A DNA stretch of 64,000 bases from IMG/VR virus record IMGVR_UViG_3300021400_001148, positions 224,001 to 288,000 of that record; one strand, written 5' to 3'. The notes under the pieces are model-generated. The model was not told the DNA's origin. It searched no databases and worked only from the letters and a program-made list of their open reading frames with translations. This document shows positions 7,207 through 44,459 of this stretch, in pieces. The translations under genes were made by a program, and so were the position numbers. This DNA is from a virus. Its lineage: Duplodnaviria; Caudoviricetes. Every line of letters begins with the position of its first letter. Positions within the stretch are counted from its first letter, which is position 1.

Positions 7207-8901
7207 ATGCTGAAAACAGAAGAATTGATTGCGGACTATCTTTCAGGAAATGGTGTTGAATTTTTATGCCGGAAATATCATTTGGGAAAATTGAAGGTTA
7301 AAGATATTTTAAAAAAGAGCGATGTTCCCATGAAAACTAGAGGAGGACAAAGTAAAAAAGAGACATTTATTGTCCCTCATTGGTCTATTTTGAAATATAA
7401 AGAGGTGCCAGGAAAACATTATGTGGCATCTTCAAAAGATGGAAATTTAACTACTCATGACTATTTGAACAAATCCGGCATTCTTACATCATACATAAAA
7501 AAGACATACGGAAAAGAGTCAACGCTTTATGAGCGGCGAAAGTATTACATGAAAACCGGGAACTACTGGTGGGAACAATGGTTTAATATAATTCTTGCTG
7601 ATAATACTGTAACAAAAAAATGTCCATACTGTGATTGGGAGACAGTTGATTTGGAAAATAAAAGTGGGGCCTTTGCTATTCACCTTTTAAAGACACATGG
7701 GTTAAGTGTGAATGAATATCTCGAAAAAAATCCAGAGGATAAACAATACTTTTCTAATGAAGTAAAAAAAAATGAAAAAGAAAAACTCCTCGAAGATAAT
7801 CGAAATTTTGTCTTTTGCCCTATTTGCGGGGAAAAAATGGAAAAAATAACCCCCCAGCACATTTTTTACAAGCATCATTTGAATTTTATTGATTTTCGTA
7901 ATAAGTATCCAAATGCCAAAGTACTTTCCGATAATATGTATGATGAGACAATAAGGTCTGCCAAGGTCGGAAATCTCACTGTTTCGAAAAAAAGATTCAT
8001 ATCAAAATATGAACGAGAAATACAAGACTTTTTAAAGACAAATGGCGTAAAATTCATGGCTAACAGGCAAATTTTAGATGGGAGAGAGATTGATTTACTT
8101 ATTGAGGAAAAAAAAGTTGGAATTGAATTTGATGGGTTAAGGTTTCATACCGAATGGTTTGGGAAAAAAAATCACGGTTACCATTTAGAGAAAACAAAAA
8201 AATGTAATGAACACGGCTATGGGCTTATTCATATTTTTGAAGATGAATATGTAAATCATCGAGAAATTGTCTATAGTAAAATCTCGCACGCTTTAGGCCT
8301 TGACTTTAATAAACTAAAAATCGGGGCAAGGAAGTGCACAGTGAGGGAGATACAAAAGTCTCTTGCAGAAAAATTTCTAGAAAAGTTTCACATACAGGGA
8401 TTTTCAAGCTCATCACTTTATCTTGGTGCATTTTACAAAGACGAACTTGTTGGGGTCATGACTTTTAAACATGGGAATTTAAAAAATTATTGTTGGGAGT
8501 TGACAAGGTTTGCAACTAACAACAAATATATCTACCAAGGTCTTGGTAGTAAAATGTTTTCTTTCTTTGTTAAAAAAGAGTCGCCTGATATGGTAGTTTC
8601 ATTCGCTGACCGTAGGTGGACTATTAACCCTAATGAAAATCTATATACTAAAATGGGATTCACACTCGATTCAATAAACCCGCCGGATTACAAATACTAT
8701 AATGATAGGGTGGATAGATTTAAAAGGGTTCACAAAATGTTTTTCAGTAAAACTAAACTATGTAAAAAATATGGGTTTCCACCCTCTATGACAGAAACAG
8801 AAATGGCAAAAGCCCTTGGATATGACAGAATATGGGATTGTGGGTTGTTCAAATATGTTTGGAAATCCCCTGATATCACACAAGAAAACCACCCGGCGTA
8901 G
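7207..8901 (+). CDS. Hef-like free-standing homing endonuclease (Zn fingers, PD-(D/E)xK/DUF559-like nuclease, GNAT-like C-terminus)
   Basis: CPYC...H...H and CPIC...H fingers; EIDL...GIEFDG..FH; RFA...GLGSK, SFADRRW, RIWDCG; AT-rich relative to neighbours. Confidence 0.75.
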   Translation: MLKTEELIADYLSGNGVEFLCRKYHLGKLKVKDILKKSDVPMKTRGGQSKKETFIVPHWSILKYKEVPGKHYVASSKDGNLTTHDYLNKSGILTSYIKKTYGKESTLYERRKYYMKTGNYWWEQWFNIILADNTVTKKCPYCDWETVDLENKSGAFAIHLLKTHGLSVNEYLEKNPEDKQYFSNEVKKNEKEKLLEDNRNFVFCPICGEKMEKITPQHIFYKHHLNFIDFRNKYPNAKVLSDNMYDETIRSAKVGNLTVSKKRFISKYEREIQDFLKTNGVKFMANRQILDGREIDLLIEEKKVGIEFDGLRFHTEWFGKKNHGYHLEKTKKCNEHGYGLIHIFEDEYVNHREIVYSKISHALGLDFNKLKIGARKCTVREIQKSLAEKFLEKFHIQGFSSSSLYLGAFYKDELVGVMTFKHGNLKNYCWELTRFATNNKYIYQGLGSKMFSFFVKKESPDMVVSFADRRWTINPNENLYTKMGFTLDSINPPDYKYYNDRVDRFKRVHKMFFSKTKLCKKYGFPPSMTETEMAKALGYDRIWDCGLFKYVWKSPDITQENHPA

Positions 8902-15752: not shown

Positions 15753-16694
15753 ATGAGACTTGAACTTGAACATTTTGACTCCCTTATCTTCCTAGTCAGC
15801 CATTTCAATAGCTACAAACGTTGCCGTGACTTCATTACCAAGCAGCGTTGGGGTAAGGTGGTTGTCTGCCCGCACTGCGGCTCCGTGCATGTTTACACAT
15901 GTAGCAACGGTGATAATCAGTTCAAGTGTGCCGATTGTCACAAGCGATTCTCCTGTCTTGTAGGCACCATCTTCGAAAATACCAAACTGCCCTTGCAGAA
16001 ATGGTTTATGGCTATGTATCTTATCAGTAGCCATAAGAAGGGGATTTCCTCCCATCAGCTTGGACGTGACATCCACGTCACGCAGAAGACTGCATGGTAT
16101 ATTCTCCATAAAGTTCGTACTCTGTTTGCACAGTACGATACTACCGTCCTTTACGGTGAGGTGGAAATGGACGAAATGTACCTTGGTGGACGTGAAACCA
16201 ATAAGCACGAATCCAAGAAAACAGAAGGAACGCAGGGACGTTCCACCAAGACTAAGACTCCCATCTTCGGTATGGTGGCAAGAGAAGGCGAAGCCCGTGC
16301 TCTTGTCGTAAAGGACACCAAGGCTGCTACGCTTTTGCCCATCATCAAACAGTTCGTTGCTGACAATGCTCATATCTTTACGGACGAGCTCAGTTCGTAT
16401 GCAGGTTTGTCTGGTGAAGGATACAAGCACGGCATCATCCACCACGGCGAAAAGGAATATTCTAAGGACGGTATCACCACCAACTCCATCGAAGGTTTTT
16501 GGGCTCATTTCAAGCGCACGGTGTTTGGTATCTATCACTTCGTGAGCAAGGAATACCTTCAGCAGTATATCAACGAATCCGTGTACCGTTACAATACAAG
16601 AAAAGCGAACGAATCCGTCCGCTTTGCCGATATGTTATCCAAGTGTATTGGAGTATGCTCCTATGAAGACGTTAAGTCGCTGAAGGTGGCTTAA
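15753..16694 (+). CDS. IS1595-family DDE transposase
   Basis: CPHC..C..C Zn ribbon, GTIFE.TKL, EMDE.Y.GG, TDE and NSIEGFW motifs. Confidence 0.95.
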   Translation: MRLELEHFDSLIFLVSHFNSYKRCRDFITKQRWGKVVVCPHCGSVHVYTCSNGDNQFKCADCHKRFSCLVGTIFENTKLPLQKWFMAMYLISSHKKGISSHQLGRDIHVTQKTAWYILHKVRTLFAQYDTTVLYGEVEMDEMYLGGRETNKHESKKTEGTQGRSTKTKTPIFGMVAREGEARALVVKDTKAATLLPIIKQFVADNAHIFTDELSSYAGLSGEGYKHGIIHHGEKEYSKDGITTNSIEGFWAHFKRTVFGIYHFVSKEYLQQYINESVYRYNTRKANESVRFADMLSKCIGVCSYEDVKSLKVA

Positions 16695-19117: not shown

Positions 19118-20563
19118 ATGAAAATACACACATTTCTCGATAAGTGTTGTACGATAGTTAAAGGGTCAAAAATTAATTTCGGCCTTAATCCTGTTGCAGA
19201 GATTAACATGGGGAGCCTGATAAGCCGGGCGTGCCTCCACTTCGATATCGACCATCTCAAAAATTTATATGAGGATAAGACCATTGCCAATCTAGAGAAA
19301 ACCAAGCATGTTTTAAAACTAACAAACTGTTCTTCTGTCAATATCAACGATGCCAGAAAGGTCCGCGCCGGTATAGTTAATGTTGACGAAAAGGAACGCG
19401 CTTCGTCTTTTGATGTTATTCTTTTCAAAATACCTAAAGATTTTGATGAGGGAAACGGTTTTAGTTTCAGGGATACATATTGGCTCTCCAGTAATGAGAA
19501 AAAATCCACTTCCGGGTGCAGTTGGTTTCAATGCAGAAACAATATACCATGGTTAGGGGAGGATGATATTTCTGGTGATACCCACTATTCAAACGGAATA
19601 TATGATGATGATTATCTTTATTCCGAGTATAAAAAATACATTGCCGGGGAGAAGTCTGAAATAATCGTTGCCAGCCAGCATTTTGACTACGGTGCTGAAA
19701 ATTTCAATCTTGACATTACTGACTATGTTAATGAAGTTATTACTGGAGAAACCATAGACCACGGACTCTGTCTCGCTTTTTCTCCGGATTATGAAACACA
19801 TCCGTACAAGGAACAAAAATATGTTGGTTTTTTCACTAACCACACCAATCTCTTCTTTGAACCTTATGTTGAGACAGATTATCAAGAATACATCAATGAT
19901 GACCGTGGAAAGTTTTACATCGGTAAGGAAAACCACCTGTATCTTTACTGTTCGATAGACGGTGAACTCAAAAACCTTGATTCACTCCCGGTCTGCACAA
20001 TAGACGGCATTGAGTATCCGGTACAGCAGGCGACAAAGGGCGTGTACTATGCAACCGTTAAAATAACCGACGCGGAACCAGAAACCATATTCTATGATAT
20101 TTGGAGTGATTTGTCTTTGAATGGCGAACCTATCGATGATGTAGAGATGGAATTTGTGGCATTACCCAAGTCTTCATATCTTAAAGTTGGGAAATTCATT
20201 GGGGAAAAATATGATGTTACCCCAACACTTTCAGGTATTAATGATAATGAGCCCGTTCGCATTGGCGATATACGAAGAGTTGATGTGGCTTTCAGAACGC
20301 CTTATACCATAAATTCATCGCAGATTTTCGACAAAGCAGAGTATCGAATTTATACAAAGGATGCCACGCGGGAAATCGATGTGTACGAGTATTCACCAGT
20401 CGAAACTGCATTTCTCAACAACTTTTTTGTTGTTGATTCAACAGAAATGGTGCCCGGGGATTACTTCGTGGATATTAAAATAAAAACCGGATTTGACACG
20501 AAGGTCTATAAGAATGTTCTTCGTTTTTCAATTGTGAGTAATGTCACTGAATTCTACAAATAA
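19118..20563 (+). CDS. putative virion structural protein
   Basis: 481 aa, beta-rich, F.LDITDYVN motif; TATTTATA at 19094. Confidence 0.6.
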   Translation: MKIHTFLDKCCTIVKGSKINFGLNPVAEINMGSLISRACLHFDIDHLKNLYEDKTIANLEKTKHVLKLTNCSSVNINDARKVRAGIVNVDEKERASSFDVILFKIPKDFDEGNGFSFRDTYWLSSNEKKSTSGCSWFQCRNNIPWLGEDDISGDTHYSNGIYDDDYLYSEYKKYIAGEKSEIIVASQHFDYGAENFNLDITDYVNEVITGETIDHGLCLAFSPDYETHPYKEQKYVGFFTNHTNLFFEPYVETDYQEYINDDRGKFYIGKENHLYLYCSIDGELKNLDSLPVCTIDGIEYPVQQATKGVYYATVKITDAEPETIFYDIWSDLSLNGEPIDDVEMEFVALPKSSYLKVGKFIGEKYDVTPTLSGINDNEPVRIGDIRRVDVAFRTPYTINSSQIFDKAEYRIYTKDATREIDVYEYSPVETAFLNNFFVVDSTEMVPGDYFVDIKIKTGFDTKVYKNVLRFSIVSNVTEFYK

Positions 20564-21571: not shown

Positions 21572-21887
21572 GATATCTACCGCAAGGAAACCCACGGCTT
21601 TAGCCGTTGGGAGGAATTGCGGTTAACTCCTTTTTTTAGTTTATTATTATATTTATATTAACAAAGCTCTTTGATATTCGGTTCGGCGGGGCTGTCTGCC
21701 CGCCGGTAAAATCAAAACAGCATCCGCTCAAGGCACCACGCGCATCGCGTGGACAACAGTTTTTCAATGCGGAAGATTTACCACCCGCTCTCGGCTCCGC
21801 CTTGAGCGGCAGGGCGTTGTCAATCGCCCAATCGATGGGAGCCTCGGGCTTCCGTCAAGCCCACGAATTCATTCGTGGGTAATTGAC
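21572..21887 (+). mobile_element. non-autonomous IS200/IS605 mini-element (PATE-like) with TnpB omegaRNA-like scaffold, 316 bp
   Basis: LE hairpin gaaa-cccacggct-tt-agccgttggg; RE hairpin caag-cccacgaat-tc-attcgtggg-taattgac; inserted after TCAT; no ORF. Confidence 0.8.
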
Positions 21888-22224: not shown

Positions 22225-23988
22225 CTAACAATCTGTTTCTCCCGGGGTATTTTTAGTTTCCAATATATCTGCATGTGTAACATTGTCAATATTACCAATC
22301 AAAGTAGTTGACGATGGTAAATTAAGGGATAAGGTACAATTTCCAACCAAAGCAAGAATAATATCTTTATATTTCTGTATTCTTTCGAGTAGTATCTGTG
22401 TTACATAATTAAGAATGAGGCTTTTGATTTTCTCATATGCAACCCCGAAAAGTTTTTCAATTAAGAAATCCATAACCTTCATTATAATAGTTCCAAGTAA
22501 CTTGTTGAAGGTGGAGAGAAAATCCAGTTTTGTTTCAGGAAACTTACCATTCGCAAAAGAGTAGTCAATCAAATAAATCAAAACAATTTTCGGTGTTATA
22601 ACAGATTCAACAATTTTTTTCACAAAAGCAGTGATTAAACTCATTGCTTTGTTTTTATAGTCGTCTGCACTCCAGTTACTGTAATTAGTTTCCAGAACTG
22701 CCTTTATGTTTTCATTGTCAGTAAAATTGTTTATAATCTCACCACCAGTCAACTGTTCTATTGACTCTTTGATAATGGTTTTCTGTTCTTGGAAAGTAGA
22801 TTCAGATGTAAGTCCACTGATGTTTGCCATTATACTGTCAATTTCATCATCAGACAGGACGCGCCCACTAATCGTATCGCCAGTTGATGTAATAATGCCT
22901 TTTCGCCTCAGTTCTGCGTCCCTGATGAGATTGTTGTATTCTTCATTGGAAAAAGAAAAATAACAATCCTCTATCTCAGTCTCATTTCCCTCAATAATTT
23001 TAGTGATAACCTCATTGACTGTAGTTTCCAGAATTGAATCGGATAATGAGATACTTCCGTTTACATTTGCGACAAGACTTATCGACCCATTTGCAATTAT
23101 ATCGAGAATTCCGGAAATAATTGGTTTTGGGTAAAGAAGGCGGATATTATCGAGGAAATCTTTGTTGAAATCGTATATAGTACTAAACTTTACAACATCA
23201 TTTTTTCTTTTCCGGTACCTCTCCGGGTCCAACAATATTGTAAAATTATTAGTGGCATCATCAAATTTAATTCTGAACAGTTTTGAAAATGTTTTTCCTA
23301 AAGCAGAAACATCATCACCTTCTATTACTATATCATTATAACTTTGGGAGGTACTTTCTATTACTTTATCTTTGAAATCACCGTTCCTGGTATCCCAAAT
23401 GGTTTTGCGGTTGCTTTTTTGCATTTTATCAGCATCAACCATGTTGATAATATACCATAGGAAAGTGTTGAGGTCACCACTTTTCCATACTTCACTCGGA
23501 CTGCAATCATTAGTAACATCACCATAAAAATGACTGCCGGCGGGGTCAGTTGGATTTGACTTTGAGAAAAGGTTAAAAATGTCAAGGATATCAATGTTTA
23601 TTTTGAAACCTTCACCAGTTACTTCTTTTCCAGAAATAATCCTCGTATCCAGAAAATTATCACCTATTATTGGGTTATTTGAGCAACTTACAAGCCCATC
23701 GAGTACACCTAAAATTGCAAGACGGATGGTCTTGTCCATAAAAAGAAGTGAGTCTTCGCCCACCGATTGTATCATATTCGTAAGTATGTTGAGGAGTTCA
23801 TCATAACTAACTCCAGCAATGTTCAACAAATTGATGGTAAGACCGAGTGCAGAAGAAATATTAAGTAGTTCAGCCGACCCCGTTCTGTTTATTTTAAAGA
23901 GGGTCGGCAGGTTATCAGCCAGCAATTGCGCAACCGCAATCGTTGACATTGTGTTTGTTAAACTACTATTTAGTCTTGGGTCAAGCAT
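22225..23988 (-). CDS. hypothetical helical protein (baseplate region)
   Basis: 587-aa ORF coupled to neighbours. Confidence 0.75.
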   Translation of the reverse strand: MLDPRLNSSLTNTMSTIAVAQLLADNLPTLFKINRTGSAELLNISSALGLTINLLNIAGVSYDELLNILTNMIQSVGEDSLLFMDKTIRLAILGVLDGLVSCSNNPIIGDNFLDTRIISGKEVTGEGFKINIDILDIFNLFSKSNPTDPAGSHFYGDVTNDCSPSEVWKSGDLNTFLWYIINMVDADKMQKSNRKTIWDTRNGDFKDKVIESTSQSYNDIVIEGDDVSALGKTFSKLFRIKFDDATNNFTILLDPERYRKRKNDVVKFSTIYDFNKDFLDNIRLLYPKPIISGILDIIANGSISLVANVNGSISLSDSILETTVNEVITKIIEGNETEIEDCYFSFSNEEYNNLIRDAELRRKGIITSTGDTISGRVLSDDEIDSIMANISGLTSESTFQEQKTIIKESIEQLTGGEIINNFTDNENIKAVLETNYSNWSADDYKNKAMSLITAFVKKIVESVITPKIVLIYLIDYSFANGKFPETKLDFLSTFNKLLGTIIMKVMDFLIEKLFGVAYEKIKSLILNYVTQILLERIQKYKDIILALVGNCTLSLNLPSSTTLIGNIDNVTHADILETKNTPGETDC

Positions 23989-24380
23989 TATTTTATAGTG
24001 TAAACTTCAGGTTTATCAGCCTCAGTAAGGCTTTTCTTAATTTTGTTAAAATCAAGTGTTGTTGGTTGTTTAGTAAATGCTTTGTCAGCAAGAGTTTCTT
24101 CTACACTACCATTATGAGAGATAATTTCAGAGAGAAGTTTTGCTATATCAACCTTTGTTTTGATTGACCTGTCCTTATCACCAAGAAAATCGTGCATGAT
24201 TTTACCGTATTTGGCTTTTTCATCCATTGAAAAATCTTGGCCCATTGTAGTGCTCTGGGAGATTTTGTTTATTTCTTCTTGAACCTGGTTCAGTTGTTCG
24301 CAGGCTTGAATATAAGTCTCTTGAAGTAATTCAGCGACAGTATCTTTTGAATTCAGTTTTATCTTAACTTTATTTGCCAT
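23988..24380 (-). CDS. hypothetical protein
   Basis: Start MANKVK; the ORF-track extension to 24401 lies in the inserted element. Confidence 0.7.
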   Translation of the reverse strand: MANKVKIKLNSKDTVAELLQETYIQACEQLNQVQEEINKISQSTTMGQDFSMDEKAKYGKIMHDFLGDKDRSIKTKVDIAKLLSEIISHNGSVEETLADKAFTKQPTTLDFNKIKKSLTEADKPEVYTIK

Positions 24381-24394
24381 AAATAACCTTTTTC

Positions 24395-24559
24395 TTGACA
24401 TACTCCCACGGATGAATCCGTGAGATTCTTGATTTTAAACGCACCCGCCGCTGACCACACGGTCATTGGTCTTACAAGCACTCACCAATTCGTCGATGTC
24501 CCGACGAAGTACGGGATTCATCCCACCACTAAAGTAGTGGGTTTTCTCCCGGAATTATT
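24395..24559 (-). mobile_element. non-autonomous IS200/IS605 mini-element with omegaRNA-like 3' part, 165 bp
   Basis: Minus strand: LE aaaa-cccactac-ttta-gtggtggg; RE gaat-ctcacggat-tc-atccgtggga-gtatgtcaa; inserted after TTAT. Confidence 0.8.
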
Positions 24560-24572
24560 ATAAATATTCGTC

Positions 24573-25298
24573 CTACAAATCTTCAATCATTTTCTTCTTC
24601 AACTCATAGTAGGCGAACTTATATTTCTTCATGTTGTCCCTCACTTCCTTTGTAGAAAGAAGCGTGTTTTCACGCAGGTAATAGAGGACTTTGGATTTGT
24701 TAAGTTTGTTAGAGCCGTCATCTGTAAGTATACCCTCCCAATTGTTAAAGAGTTCACAAAGCACACTCCCTACTTTTCTTTCATTGTCAGACAAATGTAT
24801 TGAAGAATCATTCATCATTTCATCAATTTTTTTCGCAATCCCGCTTGTAAGGTCAGAGGCTAAAGTATTCGAATCTGTATTGGTCGAGTAGTCTATGCTG
24901 TTCTGGAACTTCTCGTATGTATCATCATACGGCTCGTTGCGTTCAATTTTTTTCTTGAACTGGTTGATTTTGTAAATCAATTGGTTTTTGCAGATTGTTC
25001 CATAATATGAATACGCCTTATGATGTTTTTCCGGGTCATATTTATCCATTTTTGTGGATAAGAAAGACATTATGTCATTGAAGGTTTCATCAAATTCTTC
25101 TTCCGGAACGAAAAGTTTGTATCTGCGGATAATTGATTCTATCATCTTAGTGAAAGCAGGTTTCAGTATTCCGTTGAATATTTCATTTCGTCTTTCAACA
25201 CTATCTGTTTTAAGGTATTCTTTTACAGCATTTTCTTGCACCTCTGAAAAATACATCTTCTCTGTTTCACTCTTGGGTTTTCTGCCTTTTTTGGCCAT
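24573..25298 (-). CDS. phage sigma factor, late (gp55-like)
   Basis: YF...E.AV..Y, K.D...K...AYSYYGTICKN region-2-like motif. Confidence 0.6.
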   Translation of the reverse strand: MAKKGRKPKSETEKMYFSEVQENAVKEYLKTDSVERRNEIFNGILKPAFTKMIESIIRRYKLFVPEEEFDETFNDIMSFLSTKMDKYDPEKHHKAYSYYGTICKNQLIYKINQFKKKIERNEPYDDTYEKFQNSIDYSTNTDSNTLASDLTSGIAKKIDEMMNDSSIHLSDNERKVGSVLCELFNNWEGILTDDGSNKLNKSKVLYYLRENTLLSTKEVRDNMKKYKFAYYELKKKMIEDL

Positions 25299-25329
25299 TG
25301 TTGATAAAGTTTTATCTTTAATTTTATTA

Positions 25330-25422
25330 ACAACCGCCATCCACGAATTTAATCGTGCTTCTAAGCACACCCCGAAGGGCCTTTCCACTTTGACGTTGAA
25401 GGCCAGCCCTCTGGACTGGCCA
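25330..25422 (-). promoter_or_regulatory. structured 5' leader of the sigma gene
   Basis: GC-rich multi-hairpin island including ggccagtcc/gggctggcc and a cUUCGg loop, after TATTTAT at 25424-25430. Confidence 0.45.
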
Positions 25423-42248: not shown

Positions 42249-44459
42249 TTACACTTCTTGAACCGTCCAACCGGAAGGAATACCCGAAACACCTGACGGC
42301 CAAGAAACGCCTGATTTCTTTACAAATGTTCCTGATGTGGCAACATTCTGAACCCAATTTGTTAATGCCCCTGTTACTGATATGTTCGTTGCAAGGCACT
42401 TGATGTGATTTAGTGAGGTGCAGCGACTGAATATGCCGTAATAGCATTGAGATGCAAGCGTGCTTGCGAGAAGTTCCGGTGCGGAAGTCAGCGAGGTGCA
42501 ACCTGCGAACATATTGTAATAGCATTGAGATGCAAGCGTCGTTGCAGGGAGTGCCGGTGCGGAGGTCAGTGAGGTACAGCCTACGAACATAGCGGAATAA
42601 CAACTATCCACAAGCGTCGTTGCAGGGAGTGCCGGTGCGGAGGTCAGCGAGGTGCAACCTGCGAACATACTGAAATAGCAATTATTCGCAAGTGTGGTCG
42701 CTGGAAGTGCCGCTGGCACTGATATCAGTGAAGTGCAATCATAGAACATTCTCTCACAGCATCGAGTCGCAAGCGTGGTTGCTGGAAGTTCCGGTGCTGA
42801 TGTCAGGGATGTGCAACCACTGAATATGGTGTCATAGCATCGAGTCGCAAGCGTGGTTGCTGGAAGTTCCGGTGCTGATGCCAGGGATGTACAACCAGCG
42901 AACATAGCGGAATAACAACTATCCACAAGCGTTGTTGCAGGAAGTTCTGGTGCAGAGGTCAACGAGGTGCAATCATCGAACATACCACTATAGCAAGAAC
43001 CCGCAAGTGTGGTCGCTGGAAGTTCCGGCGCGGAGGCCAGGGAGGTGCAGTCACTGAACATACTGGCATAGCAATTATTCACAAGCGTCGTTGCTGGAAG
43101 TACCGCCGGTGCGGAGGCCAGGGAGGTGCAACCACGGAACATATACTGATAGCAACTATTCGCAAGCGTTGTTGCGGGAAGTTCCGGTGCTGAGGTCAGC
43201 GAGGTGCAACCATAGAACATATTTTGATAGCAATAATCCGCAAGCGTGGTTGCTGGAAGTTCAGGTGCTGATGTCAGTGATGTACAACCTTCGAATATAT
43301 TGCTATAGCAATAATTCGCAAGCGTAGTTGCAGGAAGTTCCGGTGCGGAAGTAAGGGAAGTACAACCTTGGAACATATTGGAATAGCAACGAGTCGCAAG
43401 CGTGGTTGCTGGAAGTTCAGGTGCGGAAGTAAGGGAGGTGCAGCCATTGAACATACGGGAATAACAAGAGCCCGCAAGCGTGGTTGCGGGAAGTTCCGGC
43501 ACGGAGGTCAGTGAGGTACAACCTGCGAACATAGCGGAATAACAACCACCCGCAAGCGTGGTTGCAGGGAGTGTTGGTGCGGAGGTAAGGGAGGTACAGT
43601 CACTGAACATATTGGAATAACAAGAGTTTGCAAGTGTGGTTGCTGGAAGTTCAGGTGCGGAAGTCAGGGAGGTGCAACCATAGAACATACTGTAATAGCA
43701 AGAAGTTGCAAGCGTCGTTGCAGGGAGTGCCGGTGCGGAGGTCAGTGAGGTACAGCCTACGAACATACTACTATAGCAAGAAGTCGCAAGTGTGGTTGCT
43801 GGAAGTGCCGGTGCGGAGGTCAGCGAGGTACAACCTGCGAACATACTACTATAGCAAGAAGTCGCAAGTGTGGTTGCTGGAAGTGCCGGCGCGGAAGTAA
43901 GGGAAGTACAACCTTGGAACATATGGGAATAACAAGAGCCCGCAAGCGCGGTTGCAGGTAATATCAATTTAGAAGCATCAACTACTTTGCATTCCCTAAA
44001 TAGATAATGACATTGTTGTTGATATCCCGGTGTAAATTCCGAATTGGTCTTGAAGTCATCCCCGTTGAAAATGGACATTATGTTGCCGTATATATTGCAC
44101 TCAAAATCAGTGGAAATGGATGTGTTCAACTCACGGTCATCATCATTGTAGAAAGAGGTGTTGTTTCCATATAATTCCAAAATATCACCTGTATTGACGC
44201 TGATGGTGTCAGCAGAAGTAATGGTCGTCCTTTCACCGCCGTTCTTTGAATACTGGAGGTCAACTTTAAGAAAATAATCTACTGAAGTGAGTGCAAAATT
44301 GCCACTTTCCAACGCCTTGATTGTCAGTGGTATCTTACTATAGTCATTGTACTTTACAGTACCCTCCCCCACAAGGCTTACATTGGGCATTTCGTATGCA
44401 TCGCTGTTTGCAAAAGAAACATATTCGCTTTGAGTACCGAATTTGGTTAAGTATTTCAT
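42249..44459 (-). CDS. BspA/TpLRR-like leucine-rich repeat protein
   Basis: 20 copies of xLPATTLAxxCYxxMFxGCTSLTSAP; late motif at about 44478. Confidence 0.9.
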   Translation of the reverse strand: MKYLTKFGTQSEYVSFANSDAYEMPNVSLVGEGTVKYNDYSKIPLTIKALESGNFALTSVDYFLKVDLQYSKNGGERTTITSADTISVNTGDILELYGNNTSFYNDDDRELNTSISTDFECNIYGNIMSIFNGDDFKTNSEFTPGYQQQCHYLFRECKVVDASKLILPATALAGSCYSHMFQGCTSLTSAPALPATTLATSCYSSMFAGCTSLTSAPALPATTLATSCYSSMFVGCTSLTSAPALPATTLATSCYYSMFYGCTSLTSAPELPATTLANSCYSNMFSDCTSLTSAPTLPATTLAGGCYSAMFAGCTSLTSVPELPATTLAGSCYSRMFNGCTSLTSAPELPATTLATRCYSNMFQGCTSLTSAPELPATTLANYCYSNIFEGCTSLTSAPELPATTLADYCYQNMFYGCTSLTSAPELPATTLANSCYQYMFRGCTSLASAPAVLPATTLVNNCYASMFSDCTSLASAPELPATTLAGSCYSGMFDDCTSLTSAPELPATTLVDSCYSAMFAGCTSLASAPELPATTLATRCYDTIFSGCTSLTSAPELPATTLATRCCERMFYDCTSLISVPAALPATTLANNCYFSMFAGCTSLTSAPALPATTLVDSCYSAMFVGCTSLTSAPALPATTLASQCYYNMFAGCTSLTSAPELLASTLASQCYYGIFSRCTSLNHIKCLATNISVTGALTNWVQNVATSGTFVKKSGVSWPSGVSGIPSGWTVQEV
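42410..43960 (-). repeat. 78-bp coding tandem repeat, about 20 units
   Basis: gaacatactactatagcaag recurs at 43761 and 43839 (78-bp period); boundaries approximate. Confidence 0.9.

What the first reader, a model, noticed from the sequence alone, without database searches (positions are those of the whole stretch)
24395..24566. Second, unrelated 165-bp IS200/IS605 mini-element that targets the late promoter itself
Seen (minus strand): right guide GAAT with terminal TCAA (as in IS608) and left guide AAAA, which predicts target TTAT. The actual left flank is tatTTAT, the core of the phage late promoter. The interior is little more than an omegaRNA-like 3' part (gagtgcttgtaagacc...tgaccgtgtggtca...caagaatctcacgg). 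Inference: a TTAT target makes every late promoter a landing pad. This is intergenic and gives transcription of scaffold plus guide without an internal promoter. The element also becomes the 5' UTR of an operon running toward the baseplate spike gene.
Basis: partly seen in the sequence, partly recalled or inferred. Interest (0 to 1): 0.72.

Follow-up and report, generated by a model that had tools for sequence, protein, structure and literature searches.

The report
Gene-less TnpB guide-RNA mini-transposon, jumbo phage
A real 165-base protein-free jumping element of a known kind (IS200/IS605) sits right behind a phage late-gene promoter and keeps only its two ends and a guide-RNA scaffold; the family does not aim at promoters, although the two smallest copies in this phage both ended up behind one.

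Summary
Observation confirmed. Window 24559-24395 (minus strand) is a 165-bp non-autonomous IS200/IS605 element: left end plus 117 nt of tnpB 3' end/right end. The predicted empty allele (tatttat|gaaaaagg, no duplication) occurs in 98-99% identical strains. The parent is a 1.3-kb tnpB-only element in other gut-metagenome contigs, with intact RuvC motifs and its own internal TATTTAT. This 355-kb genome has no TnpA or whole TnpB. Promoter targeting is not supported: the target is TTAT, only 1 of 15 TTAT flanks is TATTTAT, and 2 of 16 sites counting a degenerate sister copy, within the 11-26% intergenic background. Nor is it 'unrelated' to the first element, which shares its end hairpins. Two leads survive. 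The two smallest, promoter-less copies both sit at TATTTAT (post hoc, n=2), which fits survival of transcribed cassettes. The element lies mid-way in a 1.6-kb SNP patch, as homing would leave, but such patches cover 13% of control DNA. Verdict: a new member of the PATE-like omegaRNA mini-elements already described in Geobacillus. The scan had noted sister elements in this genome before.

The parts
24395..24559 (-). 165-bp non-autonomous IS200/IS605 mini-element (PATE-like)
   Evidence: Exact 165-bp indel against empty alleles with no target duplication
24560..24566 (-). TATTTAT, putative phage late/sigma promoter core; its last four bases (24563-24560, TTAT) are the transposon target / TAM
   Evidence: 11.8x enriched upstream of ORFs; conserved at this site in relatives with 75-79% identical downstream protein; precedes virion genes
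24512..24559 (-). Left end: guide AAAA (24545-24542), hairpin 24541-24522, outer stem 24551-24547 with 24517-24512
   Evidence: ssDNA fold z -2.45; relatives with guide AAAG have TTAC flanks at the same 14-nt spacing
24395..24511 (-). 117-nt tnpB 3' end and right end = candidate omegaRNA scaffold (5' hairpin 24508-24489, nested stems 24488-24429, right-end hairpin)
   Evidence: About 86% identical (101 of 117) to the end of a full tnpB element in L054; 11 of 34 pairs with two-sided changes, 0 of 500 shuffles
24395..24428 (-). Right end: guide GAAT, hairpin 24425-24404, terminal TCAA
   Evidence: ssDNA fold z -3.01; same end in 34 metagenome stretches
24375..24394 (-). Predicted 20-nt guide (flanking phage DNA, covers the next gene's translation start)
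   Evidence: 20 of 20 match behind TTAT in empty alleles L005, L021, L022, L079; no other good target in own genome (best 12 of 20)
24435..24521 (-). 28-codon ORF formed by an ATG in the left end in frame with the tnpB C-terminal remnant; probably incidental
   Evidence: Translation
24573..25340 (-). Upstream gene, phage sigma-factor-like protein (255 aa)
   Evidence: ESM Atlas feature score 0.99 and TM 0.72 to viral sigma-factor clusters; weak Pfam Sigma70_r2 E 0.02
23988..24380 (-). Downstream 130-aa gene of unknown function, first of a run (587 aa, 109 aa, 318 aa gpV-like lead); an in-frame ATG in the right end could add 7 residues
   Evidence: 25 homologues; 137-aa form called only in filled alleles; gpV only as a 0.93 Atlas lead
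23536..25302 (.). Patch of 27 SNPs (-742 to +859 around the element) between the filled and an otherwise near-identical empty strain

Best explanation
It is a deletion derivative of a phage-borne, tnpB-only IS200/IS605 element. Shown: ends, TTAT target, scarless insertion, loss of tnpB except its 3' end, no TnpA or TnpB in this genome. Inferred from known IS200/IS605 biology: a Y1 TnpA supplied in trans (host or co-resident element) inserted it, or a longer ancestor, 3' of a TTAT chosen by base pairing with the AAAA guide. The promoter is hit only because TATTTAT ends in TTAT and is intergenic, where insertions are tolerated. Because the insertion lies 3' of the motif, the promoter core is left whole, the downstream operon is probably still transcribed, and scaffold plus flank is probably read through as a 5' leader. 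The allele now segregates among strains by homologous recombination. Whether a TnpB in trans ever loads this RNA is open.
For: Exact empty alleles. Parent elements of 1.28-1.33 kb with whole tnpB and the same ends. TnpA-bearing IS605 relatives with similar ends, TnpB 59-60% identical. Guide-target covariation AAAA/TTAT versus AAAG/TTAC. No TnpA or TnpB in own genome. 14 of 15 TTAT flanks are not TATTTAT. Background 11-26% of intergenic sites; P(at least 2 of 16) 0.54-0.95. PATE elements carrying omegaRNAs are described in 10.1101/2023.03.14.532601.
Against: Both minimal promoter-less copies are at TATTTAT (P 0.012-0.069 against intergenic background; Fisher 2/2 versus 0/14 = 0.008, post hoc). 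Three tnpB-deleted derivatives in other contigs also keep TATTTAT upstream of the scaffold (L038, L064, L001). The element is central in its SNP patch (P about 0.07 if uniform). These hint at selection for an expressed guide rather than pure tolerance.
Confidence: 0.62

Rival explanations
1. Protein-free homing cassette with a survival filter. Insertion is promoter-blind, but minimal copies persist mainly where a borrowed late promoter transcribes scaffold plus guide. A TnpB from a co-infecting phage (or the host) loads this RNA, cuts the empty TTAT+guide site of a rival strain, and repair copies the element with flanking DNA.
For: Parents drive tnpB from an internal TATTTAT. Two independent deletions (focal and genome 217199) stop just 5' of the first scaffold hairpin and both lie at TATTTAT. 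L038, L064 and L001 keep promoter plus scaffold without tnpB. Scaffold covaries. Guide matches empty alleles 20 of 20. 27 SNPs in 1.6 kb around the element against 5 in the other 10.9 kb of L079. The empty haplotype is identical in records from two sources while all filled copies are identical to one another, so gain is the more parsimonious direction. Filled and empty alleles occur under the same BioSample.
Against: No TnpB in this complete genome. n=2 and post hoc. Copies at 348116 and 106618 have no TATTTAT, and 348116 is also polymorphic. SNP patches cover 13% of 48 kb of control DNA between the same strains, and nearly all their differences lie in patches, so any old polymorphism would sit in one. 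Covariation may be inherited from the parents. In L038 and L064 a simple internal deletion keeps the promoter anyway.
Confidence: 0.25
2. One reading: the element targets late promoters, TTAT specificity being an adaptation that makes every late promoter a landing pad.
For: This copy is exactly 3' of TATTTAT; the sister at 217199 maps to another TATTTAT by its empty allele; 2 of 5 left-end copies in this genome (P 0.008 only against all TTAT sites, genic ones included).
Against: 0 of 14 other TTAT flanks; 97% of TTAT sites are not TATTTAT; a TTTAT target is already known from a bacterial element, ISGst2; a direct scan for promoter plus left end in viral contigs found none.
Confidence: 0.06
3. 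Domesticated regulatory leader: the structured RNA or the 28-codon upstream ORF tunes expression of the downstream operon and is kept for the phage's benefit.
For: It lies between promoter and start codon; strongly structured; the sister at 217199 is present in all three close strains seen, with decayed target and terminal motifs, which looks immobilised.
Against: The focal copy is polymorphic and absent from most relatives seen; its ends are intact; no evidence of benefit.
Confidence: 0.07

Closest known systems
PATE-like minimal IS200/IS605 elements encoding omegaRNAs in Geobacillus stearothermophilus (Meers et al., 10.1101/2023.03.14.532601)
   Same: No protein gene, two palindromic ends, retained omegaRNA region, dependence on TnpA and TnpB in trans; TTTAT-type target as for ISGst2
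   Different: Here in a 355-kb phage with no partner gene in the same genome, placed behind a phage promoter, and polymorphic between co-occurring strains
IS608 / IS605-group transposons (own knowledge for the guide-pairing rule)
   Same: GAAT guide with TCAA terminus, subterminal hairpins, no target duplication, tetranucleotide target set by the left guide
   Different: Guide AAAA and target TTAT instead of AAAG and TTAC; no tnpA or tnpB
PATEs of haloarchaea and PATE-derived RNAs (PMC3119063 listed, not read; PMC4615843)
   Same: Fused left and right ends with a short interior; a PATE was shown to be transcribed
   Different: Bacterial-virus setting; 117-nt scaffold traceable to an intact TnpB parent
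Phage homing endonucleases with co-conversion (reviewed in PMC13565253)
   Same: Would cut the empty allele of a co-infecting phage and carry flanking markers
   Different: No nuclease encoded; specificity would be RNA-guided and the enzyme borrowed; not shown here

Membership tests
IS200/IS605 family | Subterminal hairpins at both ends | tested here: met
   (z -2.45 and -3.01)
IS200/IS605 family | Insertion 3' of a tetra/pentanucleotide without target duplication | tested here: met
   Exact empty alleles; TTAT at 15 family sites
IS200/IS605 family | Guide tetranucleotides pairing with cleavage sites | tested here: met
   AAAA/TTAT and GAAT/TCAA; relatives covary to AAAG/TTAC. Pairing rule from own knowledge
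IS200/IS605 family | Mobilised by a Y1 HUH transposase | not testable with these tools
   No TnpA in this genome or four related viral records; relatives L088-L090 carry one with similar ends
Autonomous IS605 or tnpB-only IS1341-type element | Encodes TnpA and/or whole TnpB | tested here: not met
   Only about 26 C-terminal tnpB codons
PATE (non-autonomous, gene-less derivative) | Both ends kept, no protein gene, several dispersed related copies | tested here: met
   four two-ended copies (165, 173, 258, 285 bp) plus two single ends in the genome
TnpB omegaRNA | Structured scaffold overlapping the tnpB 3' end and ending at the right end, with a 3' hairpin within about 10 nt of the guide | tested here: met
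   117 nt lies within the 79-466 nt range in PMC10278001. No Rfam match
TnpB omegaRNA | Transcribed, bound and processed by TnpB, directs TAM-dependent cleavage | not testable with these tools
   Needs RNA data and biochemistry; the true 5' boundary of the scaffold is unknown
   1 of 15, or 2 of 16 with the degenerate copy; background 11-26%

The most novel reading that the evidence does not exclude
A gene-less, RNA-only homing element of phages: it borrows the late promoter at its insertion site to express an omegaRNA, borrows TnpB from a co-infecting phage, and converts empty rival genomes with about 0.8-kb co-conversion on each side.
Probability: 0.2. Interest if true: 0.68.

Novelty: new member of a known kind. 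Interest (0 to 1): 0.36.

Why it matters
As an element it is ordinary: gene-less IS200/IS605 derivatives with omegaRNAs are described. Its value is as a test case. Meers et al. proposed that PATE omegaRNAs need TnpB in trans, and a 2026 review (PMC13565253) lists transposon homing between co-infecting phages as a category; my limited paper searches found no phage example. Here filled and empty alleles, a perfect guide match, an intact cognate TnpB (L054) and a candidate co-conversion tract are all in hand, so the idea can be tested directly. It also points to a compact 117-nt natural scaffold and a phage TnpB clade wired to a phage promoter.

Tried and rejected
Rfam: no match in the window. 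TnpA and TnpB searches of the own genome: none; TnpA in four related viral records: none. Viral-contig scans with the neighbouring proteins and with three left-end or junction patterns found nothing. Genome-contig scan gave three Firmicutes-type MAG records with the same right end, one with tnpA and a 42% identical tnpB; too distant to call the partner. Sequencing runs: no RNA holder listed. T4-type reading of the promoter (the reverse complement on the plus strand) rejected: the enriched orientation is TATTTAT on the gene strand. A sigma-70-type hit at 24586-24557 is at chance level. Single-sequence fold of the 481-aa gene at 19118 was useless (pLDDT 33). The SNP patch as proof of homing was rejected after a 50-kb control showed eight other patches. 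Alternative genetic codes were looked at only roughly; table 11 gives whole structural genes. ENA and JGI records of the closest strains could not be searched whole. The intergenic background comes from my own crude ORF calls and from this genome only.

Full report
Setting. The window lies in a complete 354,809-bp virus record with terminal repeats, found in gut and bovine-gut metagenomes. T4-like virion genes are present. A motif of the Bacteroidetes housekeeping type (TAnnTTTG; identification from own knowledge) and TATTTAT are both enriched upstream of ORFs. TATTTAT (11.8-fold, mostly 14-20 nt before the ATG) precedes head protease, terminase, head-tail adaptor and tail sheath genes, so it is most likely a phage late promoter core. 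That is inference; no start site was mapped.

The observation. On the minus strand, 24559-24395 carries a left end (guide AAAA 14 nt from the junction, then a hairpin) and a right end (GAAT, hairpin, terminal TCAA). It sits between a sigma-factor-like gene and a conserved 130-aa gene. Four other records carry the identical filled allele. TATTTAT is kept at this spot in more distant relatives, so the motif predates the insertion.

What it derives from. The 117-nt interior is the last codons of tnpB plus the right end. Elements of 1.28-1.33 kb in other metagenome and viral contigs have the same ends and a whole 369-370-aa TnpB with the three RuvC acidic motifs; the one in L054 is about 86% identical over the 117 nt. 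These parents have no tnpA and carry their own TATTTAT just upstream of tnpB. More distant relatives (TnpB 59-60% identical) have a divergent Y1 tnpA, guide AAAG and TTAC flanks, which confirms the guide-target rule in natural sequences. The window's genome has no TnpA and no whole TnpB. It has three more two-ended copies (173, 258, 285 bp) and two lone ends. The interior folds into four stems with two-sided changes at 11 of 34 pairs, above all 500 shuffles and all slid controls; relatedness can inflate this, and it may reflect the parents. Its size fits published omegaRNA scaffolds (106 nt for AmaTnpB, range 79-466; PMC10278001). The 20 bases after TCAA match the empty allele 20 of 20 behind TTAT.

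The targeting claim. TATTTAT makes up 2.9% of TTAT sites in the genome, 11% of intergenic TTAT and 26% of intergenic TTTAT. I gathered 15 independent TTAT-flanked left ends: four in this genome and eleven elsewhere. Only the focal one follows TATTTAT. The degenerate copy at genome 217199 lies 6 nt behind another TATTTAT, and an empty allele in a more distant relative places it at that motif. Two of 16 is what the intergenic background gives (P 0.54-0.95). The family therefore does not target promoters. The title's 'unrelated' also fails: the first element shares both hairpins with this family.

What survives. The two copies at TATTTAT are the two smallest, with different deletion junctions, and lack any internal promoter, while none of 14 others is at the motif (Fisher 0.008; 0.012-0.069 against background; post hoc, n=2). 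Three tnpB-deleted derivatives elsewhere also keep TATTTAT upstream of the scaffold, one with no left end at all. Two copies in this genome do not. Second, against an empty strain that differs at only 5 sites in 10.9 kb nearby, 27 SNPs cluster from -742 to +859 around the element. So the allele moved or was lost by recombination, not by a fresh jump. Gain is the more parsimonious direction because the empty haplotype is identical in records from two sources. A 50-kb control shows eight more patches covering 13%, so this is compatible with TnpB-driven homing but does not show it; centrality alone has P about 0.07.

Mechanism and verdict. Most likely (0.62) a gene-less IS200/IS605 derivative placed by trans TnpA at an intergenic TTAT that happens to end a promoter, tolerated because the motif stays whole, and probably read through as a leader. 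Rival (0.25): a survival filter for expressed guides, with homing by borrowed TnpB. Promoter targeting as such: 0.06. PATE-like elements encoding omegaRNAs that need trans TnpB are described in 10.1101/2023.03.14.532601, so this is a new member of a known kind, interest 0.36, with a testable novel case (probability 0.2, interest 0.68).

Noticed in passing
L054:2016-3300, L004:6573-7874, L023, L024, L025: Full tnpB-only elements in gut-metagenome and viral contigs carry the phage TATTTAT motif just upstream of tnpB, so the nuclease appears wired to phage late transcription.
   Followed up: partly
L001:7834-7965 (minus): Stand-alone omegaRNA-like scaffold fused about 15 nt behind TATTTAT with no left end: a possible domesticated guide-RNA gene.
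   Followed up: no
G000 217199-217371 (L069:1700-1872): Sister mini-element present in three strains with decayed target and terminal motifs, an apparent 5-6 nt duplication of the right flank on its left side, and compensatory changes in the right hairpin; it diverges faster between strains than its flanks.
   Followed up: partly
window 21572-21887: First mini-element (TCAT target, TGAC end) shares both end hairpins with this family, so one TnpA could move both; it is also polymorphic (316-base skip in two runs).
   Followed up: partly
G000 348116, 106618, 66184: Longer copies keep an outward-facing Bacteroidetes-type promoter motif inside the left end; at 106618 and 66184 it points at an adjacent gene start.
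   Followed up: no
L003:1500-1900: Family right end inside a tRNA gene cluster of a 373-kb phage; the would-be guide looks like a tRNA 3' half.
   Followed up: no
window 42249-44459: One of three paralogous genes with 78-bp repeats and a shared upstream sequence; about 25% divergent between otherwise near-identical strains.
   Followed up: no
window 15753-16694 and G000 215947-216888: Two IS1595-family transposase genes; the second is replaced by a different gene in strain L074.
   Followed up: no
window 7207-8898: 564-aa HNH/homing endonuclease between virion genes, next to the terminase.
   Followed up: no
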